A stretch of DNA of 64,000 bases from Cetorhinus maximus (Eukaryota), in the NCBI RefSeq assembly GCF_964194155.1, contig NC_135884.1, forward strand, positions 112,654,001 through 112,718,000, in the 5' to 3' direction. Within the stretch, counting starts at the first letter, position 1. Every line of letters starts with the position of its first letter. The notes beneath the pieces were generated by a model. The model had not been told where the DNA came from, did not search any database, and saw only the letters and a program-made list of their open reading frames with translations. The position numbers and the translations under genes are program-made. This document shows positions 8,406-59,232 of the stretch, piece after piece.

Positions 8406-8574
8406 AAAGCAAAATACTGCGGATGCTGGAAATCTGAAACAAAAACAGAAAATGCTGGAAAAACTCAGCAGGTATGACAGCACCTGTGGAGAGAGTAGAT
8501 CAAAGTTAACATTTCGAGTCCGTATGGCCCTTCTTCAGAGCTCTGAAGAATGGTCATACAGACTCGAAACGTTA
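8406..8574. mobile_element. Solo Penelope terminal-repeat (pLTR) insertion with palindromic hammerhead-like end
   Basis: 13-bp TSD accacattgagta (8393-8405, 8575-8587). 36-bp inverted arms centred on 8540/8541. CTGAAGA..GAAACGTT motif. Matches the PLE 3' end at 22880-23015. Confidence 0.85.
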
Positions 8575-8759
8575 ACCACATTGAGTAGCTGAGGTCACTA
8601 GCATAGATGCATTTAAGGGAAGTTAGCTAAGCACAAGATGAAGAAAGGATTAGAAGAATTTGCTGATAGGATTAGGTGGAGAGGTGAGAGGGAACTCACG
8701 TGGAGCATAAACACCAGTCAGGCCAGATGGCCTGCGTCTATGCTGGAGGTTCAAGAAAA

Positions 8760-9175
8760 CAACATGGTTTCATGAGGAGTGATTTTGTCTGACCAACTTC
8801 ATTGACTTTCTGGAGCCGAGGGTGGCACATCGAGTGGACAATGATAAAATCTCAAGCCATGGTGTATCCAACCTTCCAGAAAGCACGTGACTAAACTGCT
8901 TATGAAAGGCTCCTGCAAAAGCTCAAAGCTGTGAAAACTCAAGGTAAAACTAGTTTTGTTTCAATTTTCTCCTTCAAAGGCAAATTAGGGGTCGTCCTTT
9001 TAGGACAGAGATGAGGAGGAATTTTTTTCTCTGAGGATTGTGCAACTTTGGAACCCTCTGCCTCAGAAGACGGTAGAGGTGGGGTCACTGAATATTTTTA
9101 AGGCGGAGGTAGATAGTTTCTTGTTAGGCAAGGTAATTAAAGGTTATTGGGGATAGATGGGAGTTGGACTATTCT
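8760..9175 (+). mobile_element. CR1 fragments
   Basis: Degenerate QHGF..SCLTN and GRPFRTEMRRNFF segments. Confidence 0.65.
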
Positions 9176-10890
9176 TAACTACTGACTGGGTGAACAATGT
9201 TAGAAGAGCTACAATCCTCTGAACATATGTTGCACAATTGGCTTCAAAGGAAAATTTAAAAAAATACACCTCAGATTTTGGTTTCATTGTTTAAAAGGCA
9301 ATGCATCCAAACAATCCTATGATTGTCTCTTAATTCAAAAATTGAATAGACAAAGATACCTTATATCCAAAAAAAATTACAATTAATAAAACACTCTTTA
9401 TGGTAGTCACAATGTTGAAGCCCAAAGGAATAACTCTTATTACATATCATGATACATGAGAAAGAAAAACATGTCTACAAAAGGAAAGAGGAAAATAATA
9501 TAGGAACATTAATGTGCCTCCTGGATTATATGAAAATGATGGACATGGAATTATGACTGACAACTAATTTATTCTCCCCATCCCAGAAACAGTTTTAATA
9601 TCATCTCATTGAAATAGTTGAGGTGGTCCTTGTTTTTTTGAATAGCTCCATACAAGCATGTCCTCCTTCAAGTTTGTAACAATTTAGTGCTAACTGTGAA
9701 TACAGGGCTGTAACAAACAAGAAAGCATTTAAATGTTGCATAAAACATGACGCTCCACAATTTCTGCCAGAGCAGGCAAAACGATTAAGAAAGTGAAATA
9801 CACAAGAATATTTAGATGGCTTTTTGACGAAAAGAAGTGGAATTGAGGTTTTTACTTTAAAGAATAAATGTCCCCCGATTACTTTCTTACTAAATAACTT
9901 AGTAATAAACTTTGACTTCTGAATGCAATAAACAATCTGTCCACTGGGGTGCAGTATTATTTCAGAATAAAAATAAGTAATAACATTTTGACTAAAACAC
10001 TATGACAAGAATGCTATCTAAATTCATGTTTACTGAATGACCATCCACTCTTCAAAGGCTGAACCAAGCAAAGTAATTTCACAGCGCAAATTCCTCGCGT
10101 TAACAATGTGATTTAGTGCTCAATAGCATTTTCTCTTTAGTGTTAAAGAAATACTTGAGTTAAAATTCAAAACTGGCTCACACATTTAAAAATGAAAGGC
10201 AATGTTTTTCTTGACTACAACGTTATTCAAAGCATTGAAATGCAGCAGCTACAATCATGATATTCGTTTTTTAAAAATATTTCCTTTTCTGTGATAATCC
10301 AGCAGGTTATCTGCTCTTCTCAATCTCCAGCTTGAAGATTTTTCTTCTCATGTCTGGCTCTCTGCCACAGGTCCCTATAATCTGAGATCTCCCTATATGT
10401 GCACTCACCTACACATTTTGGCTGGCACACCCTGCTTATGGATCCCTATTTTCCCAACTTTTTCATCCGCTTCCTGGCCCTGCAGTACTCTCTCTCCTCC
10501 TCTTGTACTACTCTGATGGTGCCCATGGCCATTCCCAGAGATACTATGCACTGCCTTTCACACTGGAGCAACATCAATTCCTCATGACTATCCGGCCAAG
10601 CTGACTCCTTATGGCACTGATGGGGGGTGTTGGGGTGTTGGGGTGAGGGAGGGAGAGAGAGAGGCGGATGGGGGAAATGGGGGGTGGTGGGGCTGAGGCA
10701 GGGGAGGGGCTGACTAATGTCTCAAACCTCCTTGTGTCCTTTTTATTTCTTCCAAAGCCCCTTACGCTGGCTCAATGGATCAGCAACCAGTGGACTTTTG
10801 AAACATTCTCCTTGATGACAGTTACGCTGTGAACAATGCCCTTCCTATCCATAATTATACCACTGATATCCCTGACTCAAGAGAAATCTT

Positions 10891-13820
10891 ACTTACACGA
10901 ACATACGAAATAGAAGTAAGCCATTCGGCCCCTCTAGCCTGCTCCACTGTTCAATAAGATCATGGCTGATCTGTTTGTGTTTTGAATTCCAACTCCCATC
11001 TATCCCCAATAACCTTTAATTCCCTTGCCTAACAAGAAACTATCTACCTCCACCTTAAAAATATTCAGTGACCCCCACCTCTACCGTCTTCTGAGGCAGA
11101 GGGTTCCAAAGTTGCAAAATCCTCAGAAAAAAGTTCCTCCTCATCTCTGTCCTAAAAGGGCGACTCCTAATTTTAAAACAGTGCCCCCTAGCTCTGGACT
11201 CACTCACAAAAGGAAACAACCTTTCCACGTCAACCTTGTCAAGGCTGTTCAGGATCTTATATACTTCAATCAAGTCATCCCTCACTCTTCTAAACCCCAG
11301 TGGAAACAAACCCAGTCTGTCCAACCTTTCCTCATAAGACAATCTGCTCATTCCAGGTATCAATCTAGTAAACTGCCTCTGAACCGTCTTCAATGCATTT
11401 ACATCCTTTCTTAAGTAAGGAGACCAAAACTGCAGACAGTATTCGAGCTGAGGTCTCACCAATGCCCTGTATAAATGAAGCATAACGTCCTTACTTATAT
11501 GTTCAATTCCTCTCGTAATAAAGGTTAGCATTCCATCAGCCTTCTTAATTACTTGCTGTACCTGCATACTAATTTTTTGTGACTCAAACTAGAACACCTG
11601 GATCAAAAACAAAAATACCTGGAAAAACTCAGCAGGTCTGACAGCATCTGCGGAGAGGGATACAGTTGACGTTTCGAGTCCGTATGACCCTTCATTAGAA
11701 CCTTTTAGAACACCTGGATCCCTCTGTGCCTCGGAATTCTGCAATCGTTCTCTGGTTAAGTAATACTCTGCTTTTTTAATCTTCCTGCCAAAGCGAACAA
11801 CTTCACATTTCCCACAATTAACTTCATCTGCCATATTTTTGTGCACTCACTCAATCTATCTATATATGTCTGCAACCTCTTTATGTCCTCTTCACAACAT
11901 AATTTGCTATCTATCTTTGTGTCATCTGCAAATTTAGCTACCATGCCTTTGGTCCCCTCATCTAAGTCATTCACATAAATTGTAAAAAGTTGAGGCCCCA
12001 GCACAGACCCCGGTGGGGCTCCACTTGTCACATCCTGCCAATCAGAAAAAGGCCAGCCAGCCAATCTTCTATCCACGCTAACATGTTACCCCCTGCACCA
12101 TGGGCTTTTATATTCCGCAATAATCTTTGATGTGGCGCCTTATCAAATGACTTCCGGAAATCCAAGTACAGCACGTTTACAGGCTCCCCTTTATCCACAG
12201 CACATGTTACTTCTTCAAAGAACTCCAATAAATTGGTTAAACACGATTTCCCTTTCACAAAACCATGCTGACTATTCCCAATTACCTTGAGTTTTTCTAA
12301 GTGCCCAGCTATAGCCTCTTTAATGATTGCTTCGAGCACCTTCCCCATGCTAACTGGCCTAGAGTTTCCTGTTTTCTGCCTCTTGTATACAGTAGTTATA
12401 TTTGCTAGTTTCCAGTCTGATGGAACTTATCCAGAATTAGCGAATTTTGGAAAATTAACACCAACACATTTACAACCTCATTAGCCACGTCGTTTAAGAC
12501 CCTAGGGGGAAGTCCATCAGGACCCAGAGATTTGTCAGCCCGCAGCTCCATCAGTTTCTCAGTACTGCTTCCTTAGTGATTATAATTTCATCAAGTTCCC
12601 CTCTCCCTTCCACCTCCTGTTTGACATCTATTATTGGAATGTTTTTTATATCTTCTATAGTGAAGAGAGAATTAAAATATTTGTTAATTTCATCCACCAT
12701 TTCCTTATTATCGACTATTAACTCCCATTCTCACTCTCTAGAGGACCAGCACTCTACTCTCTTCCTTTTTAAATACCTGTAGAAACTCTTGCTATCCGTT
12801 GTTACATTTCTAGCTAGCTTCCTCTCATACTCTAATTTCTTTCTCCTGATGAACCTTTTAGTCATTCTCTGCCGTTCCTTCTTTCTGACCAATCATCTGG
12901 CCTGCCTCTCATCTTTGCGCAGTTATATGCTTTTTTCTGAAGTGTGCTGCTTTCTTTAACTTCTTTAGTTGTCCACGGATGGTGAGTCCTCCCCTTAGAA
13001 TTTTTATTTATAGTAGGAATATACTTATTCTGAGTGTTTTGAAATATCCCGTTAAATGTCTCTCTCTACTGATCTATCCTCTAGCCTAATACCCTAGTTC
13101 ACTTTAGCTAGCTCAGCTTTCATACCTACATAGCTGTCCTTAACTAAGTTTAAAATACTAGTCTTAGACCCATTCTTCTCCCTTTCAAATTGTATATAAA
13201 ATTCAATCATATTGTGGTCGCTGCTACCTAGGGGTGTCTTTACTCTGTCATTAATTAATCCTGTCACATTACACAATACCAAGTCTAATATAACCTGCTC
13301 TCTGGTTGGTTCCAGAACACGCTGCTCTAAGAAATTAACTTGAAAGCATTCTATGAACTCCTCATTCAGGTTACCACTGCCAATTTGATTTTTCCAGTTT
13401 ACATGTAGATTAAAATCACCCATGATTATTACTGTCCAGAGATTATTACCTTTGAGGTTCTGCTTCTTAATTTGGTACCTAGCTCCTCATACTGACTATG
13501 CAGAACCTCTTTCCTTGTCCTGCCTATGTCATTGGTACCTAGATGGACCATGAAAACTGAATCCTCCCCCTGCAAGTTCCTCTCCAGCCCTGAGCAGATA
13601 TCCCAAGCCCTGGTACTGGGCAGGCATTACAGCTTTATGGACTCTTGCTCTCTGCTGCAGGGAACAGTGTCAATCCTCCTCACTATATTGTCCCCTACTA
13701 CCACTACATTCCTGTTTGTTCCCCCACTTGAAAGGCTTCCTGAACCAGGGTGCCATGGCCAGCCTGCTCATCCATCTTGCAGACCTCGCTTTCGTCCACG
13801 CAGCCTAAGCAGCAACCACT
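10891..13820 (-). mobile_element. CR1 LINE with internal deletions (esterase ORF1 remnant, endonuclease and RT fragments)
   Basis: ORFs 13094-13423 (MGDFN..SDHN), 12028-12348, 11756-12076 and 11055-11567. 13440-13800 resembles ORF1 of the 43.9-48.1 kb copy. Confidence 0.9.
11605..11705 (-). mobile_element. Solo Penelope pLTR insertion (101 bp) inside CR1
   Basis: Perfect 15-bp TSD tagaacacctggatc (11590-11604, 11706-11720). Minus strand reads CTAATGA-a-gggtc..gactc-GAAACGTC. Confidence 0.85.
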
Positions 13821-13998
13821 TCCCCATCAGTGAAATCTCTCTGATATTAACTCTTATGAAGAGCTCAGCTCTTGTGATTGGATGACAGACAGCAACTATT
13901 GCAGGAAGACAACACGAGATACACAAGATGGTCATCCCAAACATGAGAGAAATTGTAAATGAAAGCAACTTTGGAAACAGTGAGATTTCAATTCATAC

Positions 13999-20299: not shown

Positions 20300-20773
20300 A
20301 AAGTTGATCAGGTTGAATTTCAATTTCTTAGCACTTCGTAAAACATTCCTAAATAAAACCAACTGTATCCAAGCAGAAACAGTTAATAAGATCTATAATG
20401 GAATTTTAAATTCCACATTAAGCGCTGAATGGTTTGTTTCACAGTTAGTTAAGTTTATAGAATCATAGACAAAAACAAAAATACCTGGAAAAACTCAGCA
20501 GATCTGACAGCATCTGCAGAGAGGAGCACAGTTAACGTTTCAAGTCCGTATGACTCTTCAACAGAACTAAGTAAAAATAGAAGAGAGGTGAAATATAAGC
20601 TGGTTAAAGGAGGGCGGTGGGACAGGTAGAGCTGGATAGAGGGCCAGTGATAGGTGGAGATAGCCAAAAGATGTCATAGACAAAAGGACAAAGAGGTGTT
20701 GAAGGTGGTGATATTATCTAAGGAATGTGCTAATTAAGGGTAGAAAGCAGGACAAGCAAGGTACAGATAGCTC

Positions 20774-22512
20774 GCGGAGGCTGAGCGTCAACTCGCAGAC
20801 ACTTCCTCCTACCTCTCCCTGGACCATGACCCCACCACTGAACATCAAGCCATTGTTTCCAGGACTGTCACTAACCTCATCTCCTCTGGAGATCTTCCTC
20901 CCACAGCTTCCAACCTGATAGTCGCCCAACCTCGGACGGCCCGCTTCTACCTCCTACCCAAAATCCACAAACAGAACTGCCCCGGCAGACCGATCGTGTC
21001 AGCCTGTTCCTGCCCCACGGAACTCATTTCTCGTTATCTTGACTCCCTTCTCTCTCTCCTTGTCCAGTCCCTTCCCACCTACATCTGTGATTCCTCTGAC
21101 ACCTTACGTCACATCAACAATTTCCAGTTCCCTGGCCCCAACCGCTTCCTCTTCACCATGGATGTCCAATCCCTCTACACCTCCATCCCCCACCAGGATG
21201 GTCTGAGGGCCCTTAGCTTCTTCAGGCCCGAACAATCCCCATCCACCACTACTCTCCTCCGTCTGGCTGAACTTGTTCTCACACTGAACAATTTCTCCTT
21301 TAACTCCTCTCACTTCCTCCAAATAAAAGGTGTGGCTATGGGTACCCGCATGGGTCCCAGCTATGCCTGTCTCTTTATGGGGTATGTGGAACATTCCTTG
21401 TTCCAGTCCTACTCCGGCCCCCTCCCACAACTCTTTCTCCGGTACATCGATGATTACTTCGGTGCTGCTTCGTGCTCTCGTCGGGACCTGGAAAAATTTA
21501 CTAATTTTGCTTCCAATCTCCACCCCTCCATCATTTTCACATGGTCCATCTCTGACACTTCCCTTCCCTTCCTTGACCTCTCAGTCTCAATTTCTGATGA
21601 TAGACTGCCCACCAATATCCATTACAAGCCTACCGACTCCCACAGCTACCTCGACTACAGCTCCTCACACCCCGCTTCCTGTAAGGACTCCATCCCATTC
21701 TCTCAGTTCCTTCACCTCTGTCGCATCTGTTCTGATGATGCTACCTTCAAAACAGTTCCTCTGACATGTCCTCCTTCTTCCTTAACCGAAGTATTCCACC
21801 CACGGTCGTTGACAGGGCCCTCAACCGTGTCCGGCCCATATCCCTCGCATCCGCCCTCACGCCTTCTCCTCCCTCCCAGAAACATGATAGGGTCCCCCTT
21901 GTAGTCACTTATCACCCCACCAGCCTCCGCATTCAAAGGATCATCCTCCGCCATTTCCGCCAACTCCAGCATGATGCCACCACCAAACACATCTTCCCTT
22001 CACCCCCCCTGGCGGCATTCCGTAGGGATCGTTCCCTCCGGGACACCCTGGCCCACTCCTCCATCACCCCCTACTCCTCAACCCCCACCTATGGCACCTC
22101 CCCATGCCCACGCAGAAGATGCAACACCTGCCCCTTCACTTCCTCTCTCCTCACCGTCCAAGGGCCCAAACACTCCTTTCAAGTGAAGCAGCATTTCACT
22201 TGCATTTCCCCTAACTTAGTCTACTGCATTCGTTGCTCCCAATGCGGTCTCCTCTACATTGGAGAGACCAAACGCAAACTGGGCGACCGCTTTGCAGAAC
22301 ACCTGCGGTCTGTCCGCAAGAAAGACCCAAACCTCCCTGTCGCTTGCCATTTTAACACTCCACCCTGTTCTCTTGCCCACATGTCTGTCCTTGGCTTGCT
22401 GCATTGTTCCAGTGAAGCCCAACGCAAACTGGAGGAACAGCACCTCATCTTCCGACTAGGCACTTTACAGCCTTCCGGGCTGAATATTGAATTCAACAAC
22501 TTTAGATCTTAA
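20774..22512 (+). pseudogene. PLE polyprotein: reverse transcriptase, Cys-rich linker and GIY-YIG endonuclease, with one frameshift near 21750
   Basis: FYLLPKIHK..PGRPIV, MDVQSLYTSIP, GVAMGTRMGPSYA, FLRYIDD, LPFLD; linker CPRRRCNTC; VYCIRCSQCGLLYIGET..RFAEH; PSGLN. Confidence 0.92.
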
Positions 22513-23015
22513 ACTCCCTCCCCCATCCCCACCCCCATTTCCGCTTCTTCCCCCTCCCTTTTGTTTTTCCAATAATTTATATAGATTTTTCTTTTCCCAC
22601 CTATTTCCATTATTTTTAAATCTATAACTGTAATACCCTGTCAGTCTCTCCACCCCACCCCCACTAGAGCTGTACCTTGAGTGTCCTGCCATCCATTCTT
22701 AATTAGCACATTCTCTTAGATATCACCACCTTTAACGCCCCTCTGTTCCTTTGTCTGTAACATCTTTTGATTATCTGCTCCTATCACTGTTTGCTTGTCC
22801 CTACAACCACCCCCCCCCGGCAACTTCTCCCCCCCCCTTAAACCAGCTTATATTTCACACCTCTCCTAACTTCACTCAGTTCTGCTGAAGGGTCATGAGG
22901 ACTCGAAATGTCAACTCTTTTCTTCTCCGCCGATGCTGCCAGACCTGCTGAGTTTTTCCAGGTAATTCTGTTTTTGTTTTGGATTTCCAGCATCCGCAGT
23001 AGTTTTTTGTTTTTA
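20774..23015 (+). mobile_element. Penelope-like element (Neptune-type), 5'-truncated, nested in the opposite orientation
   Basis: Probable TSD tacagatagctc / tacagatggccc (20762-20773, 23016-23027). ORF, 3' UTR and pLTR with hammerhead-like motif at 22878-22916. Confidence 0.9.
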
Positions 23016-24592
23016 TACAGATGGCCCTAGTGGGGTTGGGGTGAGGTGAAGGGAAGGGATCGAAATAGGCTAAAAGGTAGAGATAAAACAATGGATGGAA
23101 ATACATTTAAAAATAATGGAAATAGGTGGGAAAAGAAAAATCTATATAAATTATTGGGAATAAAAAGGGGCGGATCGGAAAGGGGGTGGGGATGGAGGAG
23201 AGAGTTCATGATCTAAAATTGTTGAACTCAATATTCAGTCCGGAAGGCTGTAAAGTGCCTAGTCGGAAGATAAGGTGCTGTTCCTCCAGTTTGCGTTGAG
23301 CTTCACTGGAACATTGCAGCAAGCCAAGGATGGACATGTGGGCATGAGAGCAGGGTGGAGTGTTGAAATGGCAAGTGACAGGGAGGTCTGGGTAATGCTT
23401 GCGGACAGACCAAAGGTGTTCCGCAAAGCGGACACCAAATCTGCGTTTGGTCTCTCCATTGTAGAGGAAACCACATTGGGAGCAACGAATGCAATGGACT
23501 AAATTGAGGGAAGTGCAAGTGAAATGCTGCTTCACTTGAAAGGAGTGTTTGGGCCCTTGGACGGTGAGGAGAGGGGAAGTAAAGGGGCAGGTGTTGCACC
23601 TTCTGCGGTTGCATGGGAAGGTGCTGTGGGAGGGGGTTGAGGTGTAGGGGGTGATGGAGGAGTGGACCAGGGTGTCCCGGAGGGAACGATCCCTACGGAA
23701 TGCCGCCGGGGGGGTGAAGGGAAGATGTGTTTGGTGGTGGCATCATGCTGGAGTTGGGGGAAATGGCGGAGGATGATCCTTTGAATGCGGAGGCTGGTGG
23801 GGAGATAAGTGAGGTCAAGGGGGACCCTATCATTGTTCTGGGAGGGAGAGGAAGGTGTGAGGGCGGATGCGCAGGAGATGGGCCAGACATGGTTGATGGC
23901 CCTGTCAACCACCGTGGGTGGAAAACCTCGGTTAAGGAAGACATGTCAGAAGAACTGTTTTTGAAAGTGGCATCATCAGAACAGATGCGACGGAGACGAA
24001 GGAACTGAGAGAATGGGATGGAGTCCTTACAGGAAGCGGGGTGTGAGGAGCTGTAGTCGAGGTAGCTGTGGGAGTCGGTAGGCTTGTAATGAATATTGGT
24101 GGACAGTCTATCACCAGAAATTGAGACTGAGAGGTCAAGGAAGGGAAGGGAAGTGTCAGAGATGGACCATGTGAAAATGATGGAGGGGAGGAAATTGGAA
24201 GCAAAATTAATAAATTTTTCCAGGTCCAGACGAGAGCATGAAGCAGCACCGAAGCAATCATCGATGTACCGGAGAAAGTGGGAGGGGGCCGGAGTAGGAC
24301 TGGAACAAGGAATGTTCCACATACCCCATAAAGAGACAGGCATAACTGGGGCCCATGTGGGTACCCATAGCCACACCTTTTATTTGGAGGAAGTGAGAGT
24401 TTAAGGAGAAATTGTTCAGTGTGAGCTTTTAGCTTATATTTCACCTCTTTTCTATTTTTCCTTAGTTCTGTTGAAGAGTCATAAGGACTCGAAACGTTAA
24501 CTGTGTTCCTTTCCACAGATGCTGTCAGACCTGCTGAGTTTTTCCAGGTATTTTTATTTTGGATATCCAGCATCCGCAGTTTTTTGCTTTTA

Positions 24593-27443: not shown

Positions 27444-28080
27444 ATATTTATACATCGACTCCCTATTGCTTTCAGAATTATTTCACTAGCATTGTTATCT
27501 AAATAAAACATTTAGACAAACACTGGAAATATGATCAGAAACCCTTGACTTTTTTAAATTACTCTTAAACTACTGGGCTTATTCTTATGCCTCTACAGGA
27601 TCTCTCTTCGGCCCTTGAAAAGTGATAGAATCACATCAGACCCTATTCTCGTTTCAAACTGTTAAAGCAAATTTATCAAATTGTCAAAATGCAATAGAAT
27701 AGACATCGCAAAGCAACATAAATTACAAATTTTTGAACTTTATTAATGATAAGTTTTAAGACATTTTTTAAACAGCAAGCTGTGTCATTCACTGAATATG
27801 ATAGCACCTGATGCTTGTAAGCTGGGTCTCTGATCTTATTTCCAAATGATAGAAAATTGTACAACAAATAAAGAAATAATTCTATAGTTTTAAAGTTAAA
27901 AACAAATGTTTTCTAGCTTTGAAATATGAAAGCAATATAAAGCATGAATTCTAAAGAGATAACTTTTGATAGGAAAAACAATATTGGGAGAACATTCTTT
28001 CTATAATTTGTCTATTAATGCAACCATACATATAATTAACTATTCCACTGCAGTCCTTAATCAATAAACAAAAAGGTAAT

Positions 28081-28231
28081 AAAAACAGAAAATGCTGGAA
28101 AAACTCAGCAGCATCTGTGGAGAAAGAAACAGAGCTAACGTTTTGAGTCCATATGACTTCTTCAGAACTAACGAGAAGCATTTTCTGTTTTTATTTCAGA
28201 TTTTCAGCATTATCCGCAGTATTTAGCTTTT
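28081..28231. mobile_element. Solo Penelope pLTR insertion with inverted termini
   Basis: 14-bp TSD aacaaaaaggtaat (28067-28080, 28232-28245). aaaaacagaaaatgct and agcattttctgttttt are inverted. Degenerate CTGAAGA motif on the minus strand. Confidence 0.82.
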
Positions 28232-29974
28232 AACAAAAAGGTAATGCTCGATTTCTTTACTGGAATAATTTTCAAAATTACAAATTAGATCACGTTCAAG
28301 CATTTTAAAAACAACGTTAATTTAATAGCAGAATCTTCACATCTTGTAATTTACTCTGAATAGTTACAGCACCTACCTTTGTTCATGTACAATAAAAATT
28401 TGAAAATAAGCATGCAATACAGATTTACCCAGTCATCATCTGTCTACAGTGGGCAAGATAAACAATTTATTCATTTTCTAGGAACCAATCATAAAAAACA
28501 CTTGCTGTCACTGGACAGATTTCTTATGAACTTCTTTCCAAATTCTTTGATTGGAAATATACACCCCTCCCTCAGTTTCTCACCCCACCCACATCATAGC
28601 CTCTGACTGAGAGCACTATCACAGCAAACCTAGCGTGTATAGAAAAAGTCTTACATCTAGCATGCATCTGTGATACTTTGTTAGAGATACATAATAACTT
28701 TAGAGAGAGGAAGCAAATCCAATTAGACTGCTTGAAATTTGAAAAATATAATGACCTTAAGTGCACAAGAAGAATTTACAAGTGACTAAAATTATCTGGA
28801 TTTACACAGCAAGTATTTGAACAGTGGCCTTAAAAGCACAGGACAGGTTAGCAGTTACTGCAAATATTCTCCAGGGTCAGACTACCCAGGAGCAAAGTCA
28901 TGGAACATCTGCTGGTAACTTGATATTTTTGACCTGAATTTTACATCTTCAGTTCAAAAAGGATCCAATTTTCCAAAATGCCTAGCTCAAAATCTTAGAA
29001 GTGCAAGTCATTGAAGAGCAGGTTTGAAGGTATGCGAAGAACTAAAGTGGTTTGGGTAACATCTTGAACATTGCAGGAGCAACCCATTTTAAAAAGAAAC
29101 TGCCCCAGTTTTAAAAGAGGCCACTTAACTTCCTCTGAAATTTGCTCACAAAAGTAGCTAGCAGCCATCAATAGACAGAAGCCCCTGTAATCAATCGTGC
29201 AAGCTTCAGCAGTAAATATTTAAAAATAATCTATCCATTAATTAAACTACTTGCAAGCAATTCCAATAGTGAAAATATTTGAAATACAAATCATGTTGCT
29301 GATCTACCTGCAGGTCTGTTTGATAACATGGGTTCCAAATTGTTGGTTCCAAATTTAAGGTTCCAAATTTCCAGAATTCTTGCTAATCAATGTTCCTTCT
29401 TCAGTTTCTAGGTGCTCCCATTGATTACAAAGACAGAGCTCAACTCCCACTCTCTAGGATTGTGGGGATGGTTGCATGCTCAATGCAATGGTTGGTGCCA
29501 GATTTCTTTTTCCAATACTACAGTGCAGTTCCCATCAAGCCAAAGAGCAGCATGGACTCTGTGCTCACAAATTCATATCCTGCCCACCTAAGCCCTACCT
29601 GATACTAAGATTAGGCTAGAGGAGTGAAGAGACAAAATATAATATAAAATAAAATATCATATAAAATATAAAAAGGCTGATTTTGGAAAATCATTAAAGG
29701 CGTGATTTAACTGTTGTGTCAATGCTTCATTTTTAATCATGTTTGAGCTTAACATCATGTAAATTTAAGAACTGTAACTTGTAGCAATTATTAAAAATGC
29801 AATCTTATGGATTAGATTGGAATACTGGAAGAAAGTCTAAAGCACAACACTTCTCTGACCCCCTCAAATATTGAGTGTACATTTAGAGAGTGCTCTTAAC
29901 AAGACTAAATCTATAAGTCTAGTTTGAGTGCACATGTACAGTATGTCTAGGACAGAGTAAACTGTGAAAAAGGA

Positions 29975-34919: not shown

Positions 34920-35820
34920 AAGTGGATTTTACGGGACGCCGTACTCTAACCTCCACCCTCCCCAACACCTCACCGACCGAAAAGTCGGTCGTGAGCTCGA
35001 CCACCTAAAAGCCGGCTGCTTCACCGTCATTTTAACCTGGGAGGAGTGTTCATTGGCTCAGGATGAGACTCCTGCCCCCATCTAGGGAGGAAGGCACCCT
35101 GCTTAAAGAGCTGCTGGCCGACCTGACTGGTCAGCAGCTCTGTTGTCCCAGCACTTGGCTATCACTTGAACCTGACGCTGCTGGGACTACAGGCAATCCC
35201 AAAGAAACAGAGCAAAATACTGTGGATGCTGGAAATCTAAAATAAAAACAGAAAATGCTGGGAAAATCTCAGCAGGTCTGGCAGCATCTGTGGAGAGAGA
35301 AACAGAGTTAACATTTGGAGTCTGTACGACTCTTCTTCAGAGGTCCGAAGAGTCATAAGGTCCCAAAGCCGAGGAAGAGGTTATGGAGGACAGACCGACA
35401 GGGAAGTCCAGGATAGCAGCTGGTGAGGGAGATTTGGGGGTGGGATGGGGTACCGAATTCAAGACAGCGGGTGGGGGAAAGTTAAAGGGGGGGGAATTAT
35501 GGCCTTGTTTACAGAGGGAGATGGTGTGCCCCCAATAGTCACAGGGCTCCCCCCAAAGGAGGTGCACCCCTCCTTCTTGTCCAACAACAGCCTTCACAGT
35601 GAAAGCTGTCGGGCTATGCACTTGCCTGGGCCTTCCCCTGCTGTGGGTAAAATAGCAGCAGATGCAGAATGAGACACTTAGGTGGCCTTTAATTGGCCAC
35701 TTAAGGGCCTCAATAGGCTCAAGGGCAGGTGGGTTGCCTGATGCCTCCCTTGACCACCAGAAAATGGAAGCCAGGTCAGGGGTAGGCAGGAAAGCGATGG
35801 GAAGGCCAGACACCCAAGTC
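34920..35820. mobile_element. GC-rich MITE-like non-autonomous element
   Basis: GC-rich block starting gtggattttac, like the terminus of the 2614 element. Boundaries approximate. Confidence 0.35.
35205..35360 (-). mobile_element. Solo Penelope pLTR insertion
   Basis: 8-bp TSD tcccaaag (35197-35204, 35361-35368); short fold-back gactcttc..gaagagtc. Confidence 0.78.
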
Positions 35821-37203: not shown

Positions 37204-38346
37204 ATTTAGACACAGTCTGGTAAGCTCTTTAGAGTCGAAGTGGCTAAAGGATGAAATAATTAGTGAAGTAATCTCAGAACCATGTCAATCTTCCGTAACA
37301 GATGCTTAAGTCAGACAGGTCCCAGTGCTTCAGTGGGTCAGTTGGCTCACTACTCCAAACTTGGGGGGCGGGGGGGGGCGTAGATCTCTTACCAGGAGAT
37401 CTTCACTCAGCTCCAGGTAACCATCAAAGCCAATGCCTTATTGGGTAGGATGGCACTGGCTGGGCAAACATACCAATGCTCTGCAGTTTTAGCAGGCTAA
37501 AATCCAGGAGTGCCCTCTACACAATCAAGGGTTCCTAAAACATGCCTATGCCAATCTGCACCTATGCCCTTTAAACTTGGGTAAATGAGTGTGTCCATTA
37601 CCAGTTTGAGCCTGCCATTGATACCTTGGTAGGCTCAGTGGCATCAGCCGCTCCTGTAACTGGATATTGCAAATTTTTTCACTTGCTCTCACATGTGCTT
37701 CTATCTTAATGTATGCAAACTGCTTATACTTAAGACAAGGCCAGAACAAAAAATGAAGCTGTCTCACTATACAGACAGTAAATGATCAGAAAATAATTTT
37801 GGTACTGAAGACTAAATTAAATAACTTCCCTCAGCTCAGAAAAATCTGGACTAGGAGTAACAAAAATGAGTTCTACTTAGCAGGTATTAGACAGCTAGAA
37901 ATGTTTTGAGAAAGAATTACGGCAGACGAGAACAATTTTGAGCATTATTTCAGCATCATTTACACACCATGATGGTTTGTCTCAGCAGCATGAACACATA
38001 CAAATGGAAAATTTTGTCTGTGGCCCATAGACCTCCATTGTAGGGTTACAGAGCAATTGGTGATTAAAATGTTCCTGAGGTACGCATTGAAGGATTTTCC
38101 CTAAAGATCGAAAACCATAATGAATTTGTTCACCAGTTTCAATAATGGATAATCACATCACACACAGCCATTTTGTTGGGAACTCGCTGGTGTCAGGTGC
38201 TTTTTAGGGGAGTCTGGCATTGGCCCTCCTCTCTGGTGAACACAGAAAGATAAACAGAAACAGAGATGCATAGCACCAATCAGGTCTTTAAACAGAAACT
38301 TTCTCTGATTCATAATATTACGATGCAGGAGGGTAATTAGGAATTA

Positions 38347-38445
38347 AGAAAGTGCTGGAAAAACTCAACAGGTCTGGGAGCACCTGTGGAGACAGAAACC
38401 AAGTTAATGTTTTGAGTCAGATATGTCCCTTCTTCAGAGCCAAAG
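38347..38445 (-). mobile_element. Solo Penelope pLTR insertion (older)
   Basis: 10-bp TSD ttaggaatta (38337-38346, 38446-38455); tgctggaaaaactca.caggtctg core. Confidence 0.75.
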
Positions 38446-38871
38446 TTAGGAATTATCTTGTTTAAGTTTAGACAGACAACTAATATGGCAAAGCATAACG
38501 TTCTTTATTTTGTATTATTATGCAAAGAAAAATTGTATTAATTTAACACAAATAAGTCCAATAATAACAGTTGCTCTGTAATAGAGGTCCTCATCTCCCT
38601 CTGACGTTCCTCAGACCCTTTGAGTATCGCCAATCCTTCTTCAAAATTTCATAGCTATTTCCTTGTAGAAACTCCCCTCACTGTACTCTCTGGCTAGCAG
38701 CAATTTGTCTTTGATGATTTCAATTTAAACTGGTCCAGCCCCCTCTCCTCCAATTTGTCTGCATCCTCTTCACACAAACTTAAGACTATAGATGAACTCT
38801 TACAACCACTTATGCCACCCTGCAGGACCCTGCCACCTCTCATTTTTCTACTATTGACAAAGTCTTCAAGT

Positions 38872-43937: not shown

Positions 43938-46900
43938 ACCATAAGACATAGGAGCAGAAATTAGGCCAATCGGCCCATCGAGTCTGCTCCGCCATTCAAT
44001 CATGGCTGATAGGTTTCTCAACCCCATTCTCCCGCCTTGTCCCCGTAACCTTTGATCCCCTTACCAATCAAGAACCTAACTATCTCGGTCTTAAATACAC
44101 TCAATGACCTGGCCTCCAGAGCCTTCTGTGGCAATGAATTCCATAGATTCACCACTCTCTGGCTAAAGAAGTTTCTCCTCATCTCTGTTCTAAAAGGTCT
44201 TCCCTTTACTCTGAGGCTGTGCCCTCGGGTCCTAGTCTCTCCTACTAATGGAAACATCTTCCCCACGTCCACTCTATCCGGGCCTTTCAGTATTCTGTAA
44301 GTTTCAATCAGATCCTCCCTCATCCTTCTAAACTCCATCGAGTATAGACCCAGAGTCCTCAAACGTTCCTCAGATGTTAAGCCTTTCATTCCTGGGATCA
44401 TTCTCGTGAACCTCCTCTGGACCCTCTCCAGGGCCAGCACATCCTTCCTGAGATACGGGGCCCAAAATTGCTCACAATATTCTAAATGGGGTCTGACCAG
44501 AGCCTTATAAAGCCTCAGCAGCACATCCCTTCTTTTATATTCTAGTCCTCTCGAAATAAATGCCAACATTGCATTTGCCTTTCTAACTACTGACTCAACC
44601 TGAAAGTTAACCTTAAGAGAATCCTGGACTAGGACTCCCAAGTCCCTTTGCACTCCAGATTTCTGAATTCTCTCCCCATTTAGAAAATAGTCCATGCCTC
44701 TATTCTTCGTACCAATGTGCATGACCTCACACTTCCCCACGTTGTATTCCATCTGCCACTTCTTTGCCCATTCTCCTAACCTGTCTAAATCCTTCTGCAG
44801 CCTCCCCACCTCCTCAATACTACCTGTCCCTCCACCTATCTTTGATTCATCTGCAAACTTAGCCAGGATGCCCTCAGTTCCTTCATCTAGATCATTAATG
44901 TATAAAGTGAAAAGTTGTGGTCCCAACACTGACCACTGCGGAACTCACTAGTCACCGGCCGCCATCCTGAGAAGGACCCCCTTATCCCCACTCTCTGCCT
45001 CCTACCAGATAGCCAATCTTCTATCCATGCTAATACCTTGCCTCTAACGCCATGGGCTCTTATCTTACTGAGCAGCCTCCTGTGCGGCACCTTGTCAAAG
45101 GCCTTCTGGAAGTCCAAGTAGATAACATCCATTGGCAAAAACAAAAAACTACTGCGGATGCTGGAAATCCAAAACAAAAACAGAATTACCTGGAAAAACT
45201 CAGCAGGTCTGGCAGCATCGGTGGAGAAGAAAAGAGTTGACGTTTCGAGTCCAATGACCCTTCAACAGAACAGTTCTGTTGAAGGGTCATTAGACTCGAA
45301 ACGTCAATTCTTTTCTTCTCCACCGATGCTGCCAGACCTGCTGAGTTTTTCCAGGTAATTCTGTTTTTGTTAACATCCATTGGCTCTCCTTTGTCTAACC
45401 TACTTGTTACCTCCTCAAAGAATTCTAACAGATTTGTCAGGCATGACCTCCCCTTGATGAAACCATACTGACTTTGCCCGATTTTACCATGCACTTCCAA
45501 GTATTCTGAAATCTCATACTTAATAATGGACTCTAAAATCTTACCAATGACCGAGGTCAGGCTAATCAGCCTGTAATTTCCTGTCTTTTGCCTCACTCCC
45601 TTCTTAAACAGGGGGGTTACATTAGCAATTTTCCAGTCCTCCGGGACCCTCCCTGACTCCAGTGATTCCTGAAAGATCACCACTAACGCCTCCACTATCT
45701 CTTCAGCTATCTCCTTCAGAACTCTGGGGTGTAATCCATCTGGTCCAGGTGATTTATCCACCTTCAGACCTTTCAGTTTTCCTAGCACCTTCTCCTTGGT
45801 AATGGCCACCATACTCACCTCTGCCCCCCGACTCACTTGAACTTTGGGGATGTCACTCGTGTCTTCCACTGTGAAGACTGACGCAAAGTACCTATTCAGT
45901 TCCTCCGCCATTTCTTTGTTCCCCACTTCTACTTCTCCAGCGTCATTTTCCAGCGGCCCAATGTCCACTTTTGCCTCTCTCTTACCTTTTATATATCTAA
46001 AAAAACTCTTGCAATCTTCTTTAATATTACTGGCTAGTTTACCCTCATATTTAATCTTCTCCCTCCTTAGTTCTTTTTTAGTTGTCCTCTGTTGATCTTT
46101 GTAGGCTTCCCAATCCCCTGATTTCCCACTGCTCTTCGCCGCATTGTATGCTTTCTCTTTAGCTTTTGTGCTGTCCCTGACTTCTCTTGTCAGCCATGGT
46201 TGCCTCGTCCTCCCTTTAGTATGCTTCTTCTTCCTAGGGATGAATTTTTGCTGTGTCTCCCAAATTACTCCCAGAAACTCCTGCCATTGCTGTTCCACTG
46301 TCTTTCCTGCTAGGCTCATCTCCCAGTCAATTCTGGCCAGCTCTTCCTCATGCCTCTGTAGTTGCCTTTATTCAACTGTAATACCGTTACATCTGATTCC
46401 AGCTTTTTCCTCTCAAATTGCAGGGTAAATTCTATCATATTATGGTCACTTCTTCCTAAGGGTTCCTTCGCTTTAAGCTCCCTTATCAAATCTGCCTCAT
46501 TACACATCACTAAATCTGGAATTGCCTCTTCCCTAGTGGGTTCCACCACAAGCTGCTCCAAAAAACCATCTCATAGACATTCCACAAATTCCTTTTCTTG
46601 GGATCCACTACCAACCTGATTTTCCCAGTCTACCTGCATATTGAAATCCCCCATGATCACTGTAACCTTGCCTTTCTTACACACCTTTTCTACCTCCTAG
46701 TGTATCTTGTGCCCCACATCCTGACTACTGTTCGGAGGCCTGTATATAACTCCCATTATGGTTTTTTTACCTTTGCGGTTCCTCAACTCTACCCACACAG
46801 ATTCTACATCATCTGACCCTACATCATTTCTTGCTATCGATTTAATTTCATTTCTTACTAATAAAGCAACCCCACCCCCTCTGCCAACCAGCCTATTTTT

Positions 46901-54240: not shown

Positions 54241-54350
54241 ATTGATGGTGCAACCACTCTTTTATGTATTCCAGCAAAGAATAAACCAATAAGGGTTATA
54301 CAGCTGATGGTGAAGAATGGATGATTCCATAGCGATGTGAAAAAAGATAC
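54241..54350 (-). CDS. CNEP1R1: CNEP1R1 coding exon 4 (110 bp)
   Basis: [36 protein letters not shown]. Confidence 0.97.
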
Positions 54351-54367
54351 CTAAAAAGATTTAAAAT

Positions 54368-54930: not shown

Positions 54931-56852
54931 TAAAATTTGCAACAATCTGACCTTTATTTATCTTACAATTCCCCTGTATTAGAAATAAATTTTTAATTTT
55001 GCAAAGTTATTAAAATAACATTTTCAAAAATTAGGCAGGAGTGCATCAAATATTCCTTAGAGTGCCTGACCATTGACATCTTTCCGTATTACTGCCAATT
55101 TCATCCCTCCACACCCCCTGCAATTTTTTTATTTTGCTGTATTGTGAAGGTGTCAACTTCTTGTTGCAATATGGTTTTATAATATCAAGCACACTACAGT
55201 ATCTCATTCAAATGACACTGTTGGGGTTTGAGTCACAAAAACCTATTAACGACGAGCTCAGCCCAGCTGATATTGATCACATCCTCCACATTCACACACT
55301 TCTAACAAGGGTTGCTGGGTAGTCATCAGAAGCAGGAATTCTGGCCAATTATTTTCTGTCCACTGGCACTGTAACCCATTGTAACATTAAAACCACCCAA
55401 GTCAGCACAGCTCAACACAGGAATGAAACCTATGATCTTCCTCATCTGTGTGTCTCAGTTGTTCACTGCTTAACCAGCCAAGATGCTCCACCAGACATAT
55501 ATAAAAGCATAAGTAAGGGTATAATGCTAGCTAAAAGTTTCCCCTTACCAAAATTGCCAGAGGGCTCAAAGCTGTGGGATTATCTCAGTTTACTGCACGT
55601 AGAAAATATTGTTCTAGAAGTTCTTACACATTTTTTTCCAACTGAGGACATTCACAAGTAACTGACCTTGTGCATTTCTCAAAGGCATCATTTGTACCAG
55701 CTATAATGGTGAGCTGGAAGTACTTACAGTAGATCCAGTACCGAACAACCTTTTCCAGATGGCTATACATGGGTGTAACATATTTCCAGGACCATCTTTA
55801 TATTAAAGGATGATTTATAGACAACATACTAATCTAAATCACTGAACTTAGTGCGTTGAGGCAAAATCTAAACTCAAATCACGAGAATACATTAGGCCTG
55901 ATGTTGGACCTTGCCACAGAACTATACGGTCTTCTGTTCATACAGCATTAGAAACTTGACCCGAGACAGAAATATGTTTAAGCTACAAAACTTTATAGGC
56001 AGCTACTGCATGTTACTTTAGCTTACTGTGTTTTGTTTTTCTGGTGCCCAGCCAAGCTGAGTATCTCCCAGAACTGTTTTAATGTTTTCACATGGAGCAT
56101 GGAATGAGCAAAAGAAAAGGGAATAATGTCTCTTCACACTATTTTAACCGAAGGAAGCAACAGAAACAATTGATACAAAGGCAGCCTTAATTGTTTAATG
56201 CATAACCTAAATAAGAAGCCACGGTCATCAAGCCAATTGAAACAAAAGTCAGATTTCAAGCAGAGAAAATCTGAAGATTTGCTCATTTCCTTCATTCTGG
56301 AAGACTACATTATAATTTCAAATAAATCATCAAAAGCTGACTGTTATTTTTCCATTAACCTGATCGTGAATTCATAATTCAAAAGTTGGAAGATTTAGAT
56401 CTTTAATAAAAAGAAATATGAGGCAACATCTATACTCAGGCCACGTGAATACAACATGCCTGGTTTTGGGCACTTTGAACCTTGCCATAACAAATGCTCA
56501 AACAAGTCAGTAATTTCTCATGAGACATTTACAAGATGTTAATAGCACTTTGTGTTCTTTAGGATCATTACCTGGCATACAAAGTGCCAGACAATTAAGT
56601 GAATTCTAATCCCTTATTTTAGGATAGGCTGATGTTACATTTTTTTGAAAACATTTCTCCTAATAAAGCTCGTTTCTGAAACTTGTGGGAATGTGAAAGA
56701 AAATGTGGTCTGAGCTGTTGTTAAACAGAAAAGTTCCACTGAACATTTTGAAAGTGAACCTCCACCGTCACTACCAAAAAGCAAACACACAATTATTTGT
56801 TCTGAACAAAATATTTTGACAATTTTAAATAAGTATAAAAGCTTCAAATTAC

Positions 56853-56926
56853 CTTTTGTGTTTCAGGATCTATTAACCAATTCCAGGCACCTGTGGCAGT
56901 ACATACCGAAACAACTATAAGAATCA
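56853..56926 (-). CDS. CNEP1R1: CNEP1R1 coding exon 3 (74 bp)
   Basis: [25 protein letters not shown]; tgcag acceptor, gtaatt donor. Confidence 0.96.
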
Positions 56927-57084
56927 CTGCAAACAAAAAGTTGAACTTCAGTTACCAATTTTTTTTAATGGATGTGGTTCACTAAGACAACAGGGATTTG
57001 TATTCCAAGGGAAGTAAAATTCTAAATGTACTTACCATAGTTACTTTAAGAAATCTACTTTTAATTGGAAGTTAGCTTTGTCTA

Positions 57085-57265
57085 TGTTCCTTCACTGTTG
57101 CTGGGTCAAAATCTGGAACTCCCTAACAGCACTGCGGATGTTCCTACAGCACATGGGCTACAGCAGTTCAAGGCAGCAGCTCACCACCACCTTCGCAACG
57201 GCAATTCGGAATGATAATAAATGCTGGCCTAGCCAGCGGCATCTACATCCCATAAACGAATAAAC
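57085..57265 (+). mobile_element. LINE (CR1-group) 3' terminus
   Basis: tggaactccc..ttcaagg..gctcaccaccacctt..aataaatgctggcc..gaataaa 3' end pattern. Confidence 0.5.
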
Positions 57266-59094
57266 AAACTACCATTATAATAATTTAAAATATAGTTTCT
57301 GTGGCTGCTTTCTGGCAAGTTGTTTTTGTGAAGGATAGATCCAAGGTGCTATGATGTGAAACTTCAGAGTACAATGGCACACGTTCATCAATAAGCATAT
57401 CAAAAGATATTTATTTCAGGAAAAAATGTTTTGAAGTAGAAAATTAAGCCTGTATTTTTAAATAATTCTGCTTAATGCTTGCAGTGTAGTTGTTTTCTTC
57501 ATGATCCAGATTAATAGTTTTTAACCTGAGCTACACAAACTGCCATCCTGGTATTTTCTACCAGCTCTAAGCACACAGTAGGCCAGCCATATTATTTCTA
57601 ATGCGTAACCCAATAGTAGAGGGGTGCATTGTTCGCCCTAAAACATTGTCTGAAATATTTTACACATTAAGATCAAGTTTTGATTTATACAGCGCATGGG
57701 CATATCTATTTGTGTATTATTAATATTAAACTCCTTGTCAGAGTATGTTTCTCTGTGGAAGACATAGTTGCAATAAGTACATCATCAACATATATTGGGA
57801 CACACTGGTTGTCCTGTCCACCCCCCCTCCCCCATTACAAACCTGGTTTTGTTTTTCAAAAAGTGGCAATTCACAGGTTCAGAGGTGATTAATAAGATTT
57901 CATGGATTGTTCCAAACAATTCCTTTTCTAAATTCTTTCTGAAACCCTGATCTTGTGATGGTTTGGATTCTTGTTAGGGTTGAGTCCCATGGCACTGCTG
58001 AACCTTGTTATTTTGTCCCAGTGGCCATGAATCATTAATCAATCTCGAAAGGATGTTTTGATCAAAAATAGGCTTTTCAAGCACTTCAGGACAGCGGGAA
58101 ATTACAGTCAAACCTAATCCTGCCATCATGCAAAGTTTACAACATTATACTTTTGCAAGTGTCACTGAATACTGCTAAGCAACAGAAATCTTAGCTGATT
58201 TTCCCCATCCATAACTAGAGACACAAATTCCAGGGATTGAACCTTAGATCTTCCTTGTCCGAATGGCTCATTTTGGATATTCACACCAACTTAAACACTT
58301 GCTTATATCTTAAACACTGAAATGAAATCCAGCCATTGCACAGTTTAGCAATTATAAAAATTCTTAATTTGTTTGTGGCTCTGATGGAAAGAGGAAGCCA
58401 AGGATAATCTACTGAATTGCTACATAATCCAAGATATTCTAGACCCTTCGTTGCCATCATTACACTTTTTAAATTGCAGGTCACAGGGAGACTGGAGACA
58501 GACTTTGTCCTTGTTCATTCTGCCAATGAAGAACTGTAAGCAGCACTTAAAAGTCAGAATGCCAAACAAAATGTCTGCTGAGAACCTCTGACCATCTATT
58601 TACTAATTTAGAACCCAGAAACTGAGAGGAGTGAGGCACAAATCTACAAAAAGTAAGGATTATAAAAATGAAATGCATTGGGGGCAGCTTGTAGATTTAA
58701 TTGCAGCTTTCTCTCCATTTCTACAACAATAAAGCTTGCATTCCATAATTTTTTTTTAAACTTGCAATTGTCTTGGGGCAACTTTGTTATGCCAATCTCT
58801 GATTACTCTTCTTGCTGCAATGATTATGCAAGTTAGTTTAGAAAATGCAAATTTGATTGAGACCAAGTCCAAATCATTGAATTAAATTCTTTGATTGTGG
58901 TTTCAACACTTGACTGTACAATATAGATGCCCAAAGTTAGGGTTACCAGATCCTAGCTGTCATTGTTGCCTTAATAGTACATTATTTCAGTAGCTGCGCA
59001 TGAAGAAAAACAATATGCTGTACCGGATCAATGTACCTTTTCAATCAATCACATTTCCCCAGATATTGAGCAGCCTACAGGTTGTTTAATGGGA

Positions 59095-59232
59095 ATAAAA
59101 ACAGAAAACGCTGGAAACACTCAGCAACTCTGGTAGCATCTGTGAGAACAGAAACATAGGTAACGTTTCAGGTTAAACCAACATCTTCTGTTTTTATTTC
59201 AGATTTCCAGCATCCACAATATCTTTCTTTTG
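59095..59232. mobile_element. Solo Penelope pLTR remnant with inverted termini in CNEP1R1 intron 2
   Basis: ataaaaacagaa..gctggaaa.actcagca / ttctgtttttatttcagatttccagcatcc; same architecture as 28081-28231. Confidence 0.7.

What the first reader, a model, noticed from the sequence alone, without database searches (positions are those of the whole stretch)
8406..59232. Dense family of 100-235 bp solo pLTR insertions, each with its own TSD, all truncating or folding back at the hammerhead
Seen: seven short insertions (8406, 11605, 28081, 35205, 38347, 45137, 59095). Six have clear 8-15 bp TSDs. Six end or invert within about 10 nt 5' of the CTGNNGA core; 59095 inverts within the motif. The ~35-bp tail (aaaatactgcggatgctggaaatc) is never on more than one end. 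Inference: the ribozyme structure or its cleavage product sets the template end or triggers RT strand switching. The unit mobilised may be a short processed RNA, making a SINE-like family with no tRNA head.
Basis: partly seen in the sequence, partly recalled or inferred. Interest (0 to 1): 0.7.

Follow-up and report, generated by a model that had tools for sequence, protein, structure and literature searches.

The report
Penelope leader stubs mark RNA start
These short insertions are real, but they are leftover copies of the first 100-140 bases of a known kind of jumping gene, and they pile up at one sharp end just in front of its ribozyme motif, likely because that is where the copied RNA begins rather than because the ribozyme cuts or blocks the copying.

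Summary
The seven insertions are real; six have 8-15 bp TSDs. They are antisense pieces of the hammerhead-bearing leader (+1 to about +140) of a Neptune-type Penelope-like element. 'All' is wrong: two ORF-bearing copies at 20470-24592 run through the hammerhead, and so do 41 of 109 arms in an unselected 1.6 Mb sample. The breakpoint peak is real: 35 of 109 arms end at -6..+5, at least fourfold the per-base rate of any other uncensored bin. But it lies 35 nt upstream of the cut site, at the front edge of helix I, 29-31 nt behind a TATA-like box. Ends at the cut site are rare. Head-to-head pairs carry one tail (63 of 74 tail/no-tail, no no-tail pair). Best reading: internal priming on both target strands, with run-off at the transcription start (inferred; no RNA ends mapped). 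Stubs lack the promoter, hold T runs and show no stub-only alleles, so a SINE-like family is not supported. The scan reached this reading before on other DNA, in this genome too.

The parts
8406..8542 (-). Leader arm +1..+136 with tail (subfamily C, core CTGAAGA)
8539..8574 (+). Short inverted arm +1..about +37, joined through the 4-nt palindrome at +1..+4; TSD 8393-8405 / 8575-8587
11605..11705 (-). Tail-less arm +2..+99 plus 4 extra bases (possibly a tiny tail-end arm); TSD 11590-11604 / 11706-11720
28081..28177 (-). Tail-less arm -8/-9..+101 with a small internal deletion
28178..28231 (+). Tail arm +87..+136; TSD 28067-28080 / 28232-28245
35205..35343 (-). Tail arm +3/+4..+140, followed by a short inverted piece (about +7..+20, 35345-35358); TSD 35197-35204 / 35361-35368
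38347..38445 (-). Tail-less single arm from about +2 to about +93; TSD 38337-38346 / 38446-38455
45137..45271 (-). Tail arm +2..+135 (subfamily A, core CTGTTGA), inserted in a CR1-like RT reading frame
45272..45370 (+). Tail-less arm +1..+101; the recurrent 1-nt-spacer head-to-head junction; TSD 45123-45136 / 45371-45384
59095..59173 (-). Old tail-less arm +24/+28..+101, broken inside helix II
59177..59235 (+). Old tail arm from +85/+89; TSD not clear (7-bp offset match)
20470..24592 (.).
20771..23015 (+).
22847..22855 (+). TATA-like box about 29-31 nt before +1 (predicted promoter; absent from stubs)
22878..22916 (+). Reference minimal type I hammerhead motif: +1 (predicted RNA start) = first base of helix I; core +5..+11; predicted cut after +35 (22912)
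   Evidence: motif layout as in PMC4209133

Best explanation
The insertions are leader-only pieces of a Neptune-type Penelope-like element whose 5' ends pile up at the first base of the hammerhead, likely because reverse transcription starts inside the leader and runs off the capped 5' end of the RNA there. Shown: the unit +1..+140 is the start of the full element and is followed by the ORF (ATG at +173..+177); 3' ends fall in two clusters (about +99..+107 and +128..+132 on the profile); head-to-head pairs have one tail arm and one tail-less arm; 5' ends peak at -6..+5. Inferred: a TATA/initiator promoter in an upstream pLTR starts the RNA at +1; the GIY-YIG nuclease nicks both target strands; each nick primes a cDNA, one from each internal start site; when the leader used is the one at the RNA's 5' end both cDNAs stop at +1 and are joined head to head through 1-4 nt overlaps, or one stays tiny; when it is the leader repeated at the RNA's 3' end the cDNAs run on into the 3' UTR and ORF and truncate at random. 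Stubs lose the promoter and are predicted to be dead ends.
For: Peak: 35 of 109 resolved arms end at -6..+5, hazard 0.042 per nt against 0.001-0.004 upstream and 0.005-0.011 inside the hammerhead; 41 of the 76 arms that reach +5 go on. Genome-wide, 1,009 head-to-head junctions have both arms at +1/+2 against 59 at a control position near +54. 18 of 20 fetched loci with a purine before +1 are true 5' ends. TATA-like hexamer at -29/-30 in 56 of 65 (A) and 36 of 47 (B) long arms, and TATAAA-type at -31 to -28 in 11 of 17 (C). Leader continues into the ORF in L066, L126 and L090. Pairs: 63 tail/no-tail, 7 tail/short, 3 tail/tail (413-875 nt apart, probably neighbours), 1 short/short, 0 no-tail/no-tail of 74. 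In 14 of 41 abutting pairs the tail-less arm reaches more than 10 nt further 5', so neither arm can be a copy of the other (2 of the 14 are censored at the 450-nt limit). Of 27 pairs with both arms reaching +8, 0 are mixed wall/past (13 expected). Frangieh 2024 (PMC11167929) shows two internal RT starts that define the tail, nicking and extension of both strands, and no need for hammerhead cleavage in vitro.
Against: No RNA 5' end was mapped; only assembled contigs were available. The extra G expected from cap copying is weak: 24 of 45 G against A in the AGTT-type rows, p 0.06, and several G's are explained by microhomology or a tiny tail arm. The peak is about 11 nt wide with a shoulder to +17. 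+1 is also the hammerhead boundary and a YAG after a pyrimidine tract, so position alone does not single out a start site. The arm-coupling result is also expected from a fold-back. 27 of 136 arms were dropped (3 at a stretch edge, 24 where BLAST stopped short of the profile start, many from an older subfamily without a long reference). The in vitro precedent is a Poseidon element, in which the hammerhead overlaps the ORF start. D. virilis Penelope has a TATA-less internal promoter (PMC2377424).
Confidence: 0.7

Rival explanations
1. The ribozyme sets the end: self-cleavage makes the template 5' end, or the folded hammerhead stalls RT and triggers strand switching.
For: The peak coincides with the 5' boundary of helix I. 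The hazard inside the motif (0.005-0.011) is higher than upstream. Some junctions use its palindromes (pairs at +33/+35). A small excess sits at the cut site, 129 against 78, p 5e-4.
Against: The cut is after +35, the peak is at +1. The cut-site excess is about 50 copies in a subfamily of more than 13,803 and may partly reflect different mutation rates of C and T. Helices are unwound before RT reaches +1. The leader folds no better than shuffles (z 0.58 to -1.43, 4 of 4 copies). The peak holds in subfamilies with A6U/A6C cores.
Confidence: 0.08
2. +1/+2 is a 3' splice site; the ends reflect a spliced RNA or a splicing intermediate.
For: Invariant YAG after a pyrimidine tract in all three subfamilies. 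In D. virilis Penelope the intron's 3' end maps to the 5' end of helix I (PMC4209133).
Against: 0 of 53 stubs have a 7-mer before +3 that matches a 7-mer before a GTR within 450 nt upstream; no shared upstream exon sequence. Head-to-head junctions sit directly at +1/+2 with no exon between. No GT..AG joint to +3 among the joints shown (2 and 29 joints not shown).
Confidence: 0.08
3. The stub is a self-propagating, SINE-like non-autonomous family with no tRNA head.
For: About a quarter of insertions are wall stubs (29 of 111). Within subfamily clusters a stub's nearest neighbour is a stub more often than in shuffles (0.49 against 0.35, p 0.03, n 45). One junction recurs in 30 of the first 50 listed. 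Non-autonomous PLEs and PLE-derived retrozymes are known (PMC8557442; bioRxiv 10.64898/2026.07.22.740005).
Against: Stubs occur in every subfamily beside long copies, with no allele held by 4 or more stubs and no long arm. The recurrent junction appears in different subfamilies and in both orientations relative to the tail (45137 against L141 and L191). The promoter-like box lies outside the stub; T runs would end Pol III transcription; no tRNA gene in the window.
Confidence: 0.07
4. One cDNA is made and then folds back on itself (or an antisense RNA self-primes, as proposed in PMC3846280); the second arm is a DNA copy and the tail asymmetry comes from nuclease resolution.
For: 21 of 41 abutting pairs are symmetric within 10 nt. 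Arms of a pair nearly always share a subfamily. Short second arms with scattered 3' ends (8406, 35205, 7 tail/short pairs) look like aborted copies.
Against: In 14 of 41 pairs neither arm contains the other. The perfect TA-centred palindrome expected from a hairpin at +1 is absent from 50 of 50 listed junctions. It does not by itself explain why the end is at +1.
Confidence: 0.07

Closest known systems
Insertion units of endonuclease-positive Penelope-like elements (pLTR, inverted 5'-truncated copy, 30-40 bp tail at one end, solo pLTRs): PMC8557442, PMC3846280 (passages read)
   Same: Head-to-head inverted arms, one-sided tail of about 35 nt, 8-15 bp TSDs, heavy 5' truncation, TATA/Inr-like motif in the pLTR (noted for Adineta Pen2a).
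   Different: Those passages treat 5' truncation as unfixed and some solo pLTRs as recombination products; here about a third of resolved arms end in one 11-nt window and carry their own TSDs.
Poseidon element of Anolis (PAc), Frangieh et al. 2024, PMC11167929 (parts 1-2 of 4 read)
   Same: Two internal RT start sites that bound the tail, both strands nicked and extended, hammerhead cleavage not needed, start sites about 100-140 nt downstream of the hammerhead.
   Different: PAc is Poseidon clade with the ATG inside helix II; here the linker is Neptune/Nematis type and the ATG is about 174 nt downstream. A 5' wall was not reported in the parts read.
Minimal hammerheads of metazoan PLEs, Cervera and de la Pena 2014, PMC4209133 (parts 1-2 of 4 read)
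   Same: Type I motif, short helix I, extra base before helix II, palindromic 15.2-16.2, mostly single dispersed motifs from truncated PLEs.
   Different: Young subfamilies here have C or U at core position 6; the motif starts exactly at the stub wall.
Non-LTR retrozymes (bioRxiv 10.64898/2026.07.22.740005, parts 1-3 of 5 read)
   Same: Short, non-coding, hammerhead-bearing, derived from pLTRs.
   Different: Retrozymes are head-to-tail tandem units thought to move as circles; these are single or head-to-head, begin at a fixed point 35 nt before the cut site and show no lineage of their own.
L1 twin priming and retroviral minus-strand strong-stop DNA (recalled, not from a call)
   Same: Two primers from the two target strands; a short cDNA that runs from an internal primer to the RNA 5' end.
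   Different: L1's two cDNAs copy different parts of the RNA, while these overlap; strong-stop DNA is transferred, not integrated.

Membership tests
EN+ Penelope-like element | RT followed by C-terminal GIY-YIG endonuclease in the parent element | tested here: met
   PF00078 E 1e-7 and PF01541 E 8e-5 at 20771-22512; homologues in rays and sharks
EN+ Penelope-like element | CCHH motif with two cysteines between GIY and YIG | tested here: met
   C-x2-C motifs before YIG and two later histidines in the translation; feature from PMC8557442
EN+ Penelope-like element | pLTR from partial tandem; inverted 5'-truncated copy; 30-40 bp tail at one end; TSD | tested here: met
   L066, L126, L090 tandem junctions; 63 of 74 pairs tail/no-tail; TSDs
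Neptune/Nematis type | CX2-5CxxC motif in the RT-EN linker | tested here: met
   C-x4-C-x2-C in the linker; absent from Penelope/Poseidon according to PMC8557442
Neptune clade | Placement in the RT phylogeny | not tested
   No tree with reference PLEs was built; Neptune against Nematis is not separated here
Minimal type I hammerhead of PLEs | Helix I, helix II, extra base after A9, GAAA, palindromic 15.2-16.2 | tested here: met
   Layout in 152 arms; cut position after +35 in 142 of 152. Rfam gave no hammerhead hit at E<=5
Minimal type I hammerhead of PLEs | Canonical CUGANGA core | tested here: inconclusive
   Met in subfamily C (23 of 25) and 9 of 55 B arms; among the listed cores, C or U at position 6 in at least 69 of 72 A and 42 of 55 B arms
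Minimal type I hammerhead of PLEs | Self-cleavage | not testable with these tools
   Needs an in vitro assay
SINE (Pol III, non-autonomous) | Internal promoter and no early T-run terminator | tested here: not met
   4-6 runs of >=4 T in 3 of 3 units; TATA-like box outside the stub; no tRNA gene
SINE (Pol III, non-autonomous) | Own lineage of copies distinct from the partner element | tested here: not met
   No stub-only alleles among 197 arms; weak nearest-neighbour excess, p 0.03
Non-LTR retrozyme | Head-to-tail tandem units each with a hammerhead | tested here: not met
   Window copies are single or head-to-head; one short head-to-tail duplication seen in L292
Non-LTR retrozyme | Circular RNA intermediate | not testable with these tools
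   Only contigs were available

The most novel reading that the evidence does not exclude
Tens of thousands of stubs are integrated 'strong-stop' cDNAs: a fossil 5' RACE showing that this retroelement's RNA starts on the first base of its hammerhead, and that a dimeric enzyme makes two cDNAs, one from each target strand and each internal start site, and joins them end to end. Promoter-bearing truncated copies could feed this route without an ORF, giving a one-generation non-autonomous class unlike SINEs or retrozymes.
Probability: 0.4. Interest if true: 0.62.

Novelty: new variant of a known kind. Interest (0 to 1): 0.42.

Why it matters
How Penelope-like elements make inverted pLTRs, one-sided tails and solo ends is an open question, and the role of their hammerheads is unknown. 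The stub ends give in vivo, genome-scale support for the internal, two-site, two-strand priming seen so far in one in vitro system, predict a transcription start to within a few bases, and say that uncleaved RNA is the usual template. They also explain about a quarter of roughly 280,000 insertions (extrapolated from 111 in 1.6 Mb) that a repeat annotation could misfile as a SINE or MITE. It is not a new class of element.

Tried and rejected
Rfam scan: no hammerhead hit, 3 chance hits. One own-genome DNA search returned nothing, probably because its words are too common. RNA runs: only assembled contigs; neither starts nor levels can be read, and contig depth steps at +1 were not used. Cap-derived G: weak and confounded; in subfamily C a G at -1 follows from the +1..+4 palindrome, and the T excess before +2 is the other strand of head-to-head junctions. 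Shared rare variants between the arms of a pair: too few (0-2) to tell one template from two. First label 'Poseidon' dropped after the linker check. Splice-acceptor model: 0 of 53. In the pair-coupling test 24 of 74 pairs were dropped (6 selected by an upstream query, 18 not abutting or over-extended by BLAST). Literature searches found no paper that reports a 5'-end peak at the hammerhead's front edge; the library lacks most subscription journals, Lunse 2017 was not held, and no supplements were read (Frangieh Fig. S2, on genomic ends, may bear on this).
Full report
Observation. Six have exact TSDs of 8-15 bp; 59095 has only a 7-bp offset match (chance 26 of 1500 for >=8 bp). All are pieces of one repeat, read antisense on the + strand. 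The same repeat ends an ORF-bearing copy at 20771-23015 with RT and GIY-YIG domains and a C-x4-C-x2-C linker, the mark of Neptune/Nematis-type PLEs in PMC8557442 (passages). Its homologues are from rays and sharks. That copy is nested in a second insertion, 20470-24592, with a long tail-less arm and a short tail arm.

Anatomy. I number from +1 = the A at window 22878. In 152 arms helix I is +1..+4 paired with +36..+39, the core is +5..+11 and the cut falls after +35 in 142. Three loci show what follows the tail in an intact tandem junction: the element body, with an ATG at +173..+177 in frame with the N-terminal coding region in L066. So the stub is at once the 3' end of genomic copies and the 5' leader of the transcription unit. 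Long arms carry a TATA-like hexamer at a fixed distance before +1 in all three subfamilies: -29/-30 in 56 of 65 A and 36 of 47 B arms, -31 to -28 in 11 of 17 C arms.

Breakpoints. I fetched 160 stretches of 10 kb at round-number positions. They hold 136 arms with the first profile (139 with the second, 0 in the reversed decoy), about 111 insertions. 27 arms were dropped (3 at an edge, 24 without an adequate reference). Of 109, 35 end at -6..+5, 41 run further upstream (19 beyond -400), and 33 end downstream of +5. The hazard is 0.042 per nt at the peak, 0.001-0.004 upstream and 0.005-0.011 within the hammerhead; p 2e-33 against a uniform spread and 2e-12 against +6..+65 alone. The peak is strongest in the set fetched with a subfamily C query (18 of 33 at risk) and weaker in the sets for young A (6 of 31) and B (5 of 41). 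Genome-wide exact patterns agree: 62,379 copies keep a pyrimidine before +1, 6,446 have a purine there and 9,658 lose +1 itself; 18 of 20 fetched purine loci are true 5' ends (the 20 were AGTT-type rows taken from the top of the list). Head-to-head junctions with both arms at +1/+2 number 1,009, against 59 near +54.

The ribozyme is not the likely cause. The cleavage product would begin at +36. Only 5 of 31 ends in +6..+65 lie at +33..+39 (p 0.29). RT reaches +1 after it has unwound the whole motif, the leader folds no better than shuffles, and 40 of the first 50 junctions have non-canonical cores on both arms (my count). In vitro, hammerhead mutants of the Anolis element insert normally (PMC11167929).

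Two arms. Of 74 opposite-strand pairs, 63 are tail/no-tail, 7 tail/short, 3 tail/tail (far apart) and none no-tail/no-tail. 3' ends form two clusters about 30-35 nt apart. In 14 of 41 abutting pairs the tail-less arm reaches further 5' than the tail arm (6 the reverse, 21 within 10 nt), so in those neither is a copy of the other. Many apparently single stubs carry a few bases that match the reversed tail end (L071, L048, 11605). Among 27 pairs with both arms reaching +8, 15 both stop at the wall, 12 both pass it, and none is mixed; a fold-back would also give this. The recurrent junctions (1-nt spacer in 30 of 50; a 3-nt overlap in 3 of 20; the 4-nt palindrome in subfamily C) all fit two cDNAs that end at +1 and anneal through 1-4 nt (inference).

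Mechanism. Frangieh 2024 showed two internal RT starts that bound the tail and extension of both strands. PLE transcripts start in the upstream pLTR (PMC6765202 passage; PMC2377424 passages). If the RNA starts at +1, priming in its first leader gives cDNAs of 100-140 nt that run off the end; priming in the leader repeated at its 3' end gives long copies. This accounts for the wall, for the near-even split at it (35 stop, 41 pass), the one-sided tail and the TSDs. The start site, the cap and the use of two leaders are inferred. The extra G expected from a cap is only suggestive (p 0.06). RNA contigs could not test it. A splice acceptor at the same YAG has a precedent in D. virilis (PMC4209133) but no support here (0 of 53).

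SINE-like family? Stubs lack the TATA-like box, hold T runs and occur in every subfamily with no stub-only allele; against this, stubs are slightly more often each other's nearest neighbours (0.49 against 0.35, p 0.03), which may reflect source elements with different stub rates.

Novelty. Inverted arms, one-sided tails, solo pLTRs and minimal hammerheads are all described (PMC8557442, PMC3846280, PMC4209133). Searches found no report of the fixed 5' wall. The scan's own notes reached the same reading in other genomes and elsewhere in this one; my reading was written before I saw them, they are not independent evidence, and they prompted the Neptune check and the cut-site test. Papers seen: PMC11167929 parts 1-2 of 4; PMC4209133 parts 1-2 of 4; bioRxiv 10.64898/2026.07.22.740005 parts 1-3 of 5; passages of PMC8557442, PMC3846280, PMC2377424 and PMC6765202; no supplements. 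The L1 twin-priming and strong-stop comparisons are recalled. Verdict: a real feature, a by-product of a known kind of element, with a useful mechanistic clue; interest 0.42.

Noticed in passing
window 22882-22888, 24468-24474, 45273-45282; genome-wide: Young subfamilies have C or U at hammerhead core position 6 (CTGCTGA 40, CTGCCGA 16, CTGTTGA 13 of 72 A arms; CTGTTGA 38 of 55 B arms) yet are abundant; whether they cleave is untested.
   Followed up: partly
window 45260-45284; G000 list: One head-to-head junction with a single central base makes up 30 of the first 50 listed, in several subfamilies and both orientations; the perfect 2-nt palindrome centre was not seen.
   Followed up: partly
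window 20470-24592: A subfamily A copy is nested in the 3' UTR of a subfamily B insertion, which itself sits in a short TAGAAT-type repeat like the 3' tails of CR1 elements (likeness recalled).
   Followed up: partly
window 22958-22966; L066:1674-1684: Subfamilies A and B have a donor-like CAG/GTA at about +87, absent from C, and full-length junctions have an acceptor-like pyrimidine tract plus AG at about +213; a leader intron is possible but no such joint was among those shown.
   Followed up: partly
window 8539-8574, 35345-35358; L184, L239, L148, L041, L113: Short second arms that start near +1 and stop at scattered points (+12 to +77) rather than at the two usual 3' ends; the one at 8406 stops at +36..+38, next to the cut site.
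   Followed up: partly
G000 lists: Small excess of subfamily A copies that mismatch at +35 (129) over +34 (78): possibly rare copies of cleaved RNA.
   Followed up: partly
window 44018-46367: The 45137 palindrome interrupts a fairly intact CR1-like RT reading frame on the minus strand.
   Followed up: no
L292: A leader copy followed directly by a second head-to-tail copy from about +4, a retrozyme-like mini-tandem.
   Followed up: no
L165, L185, L141, L119 and others: An older subfamily with a CTGATGA core, a shorter helix II and a different upstream box was present but lacked long references and was mostly dropped from the counts.
   Followed up: no
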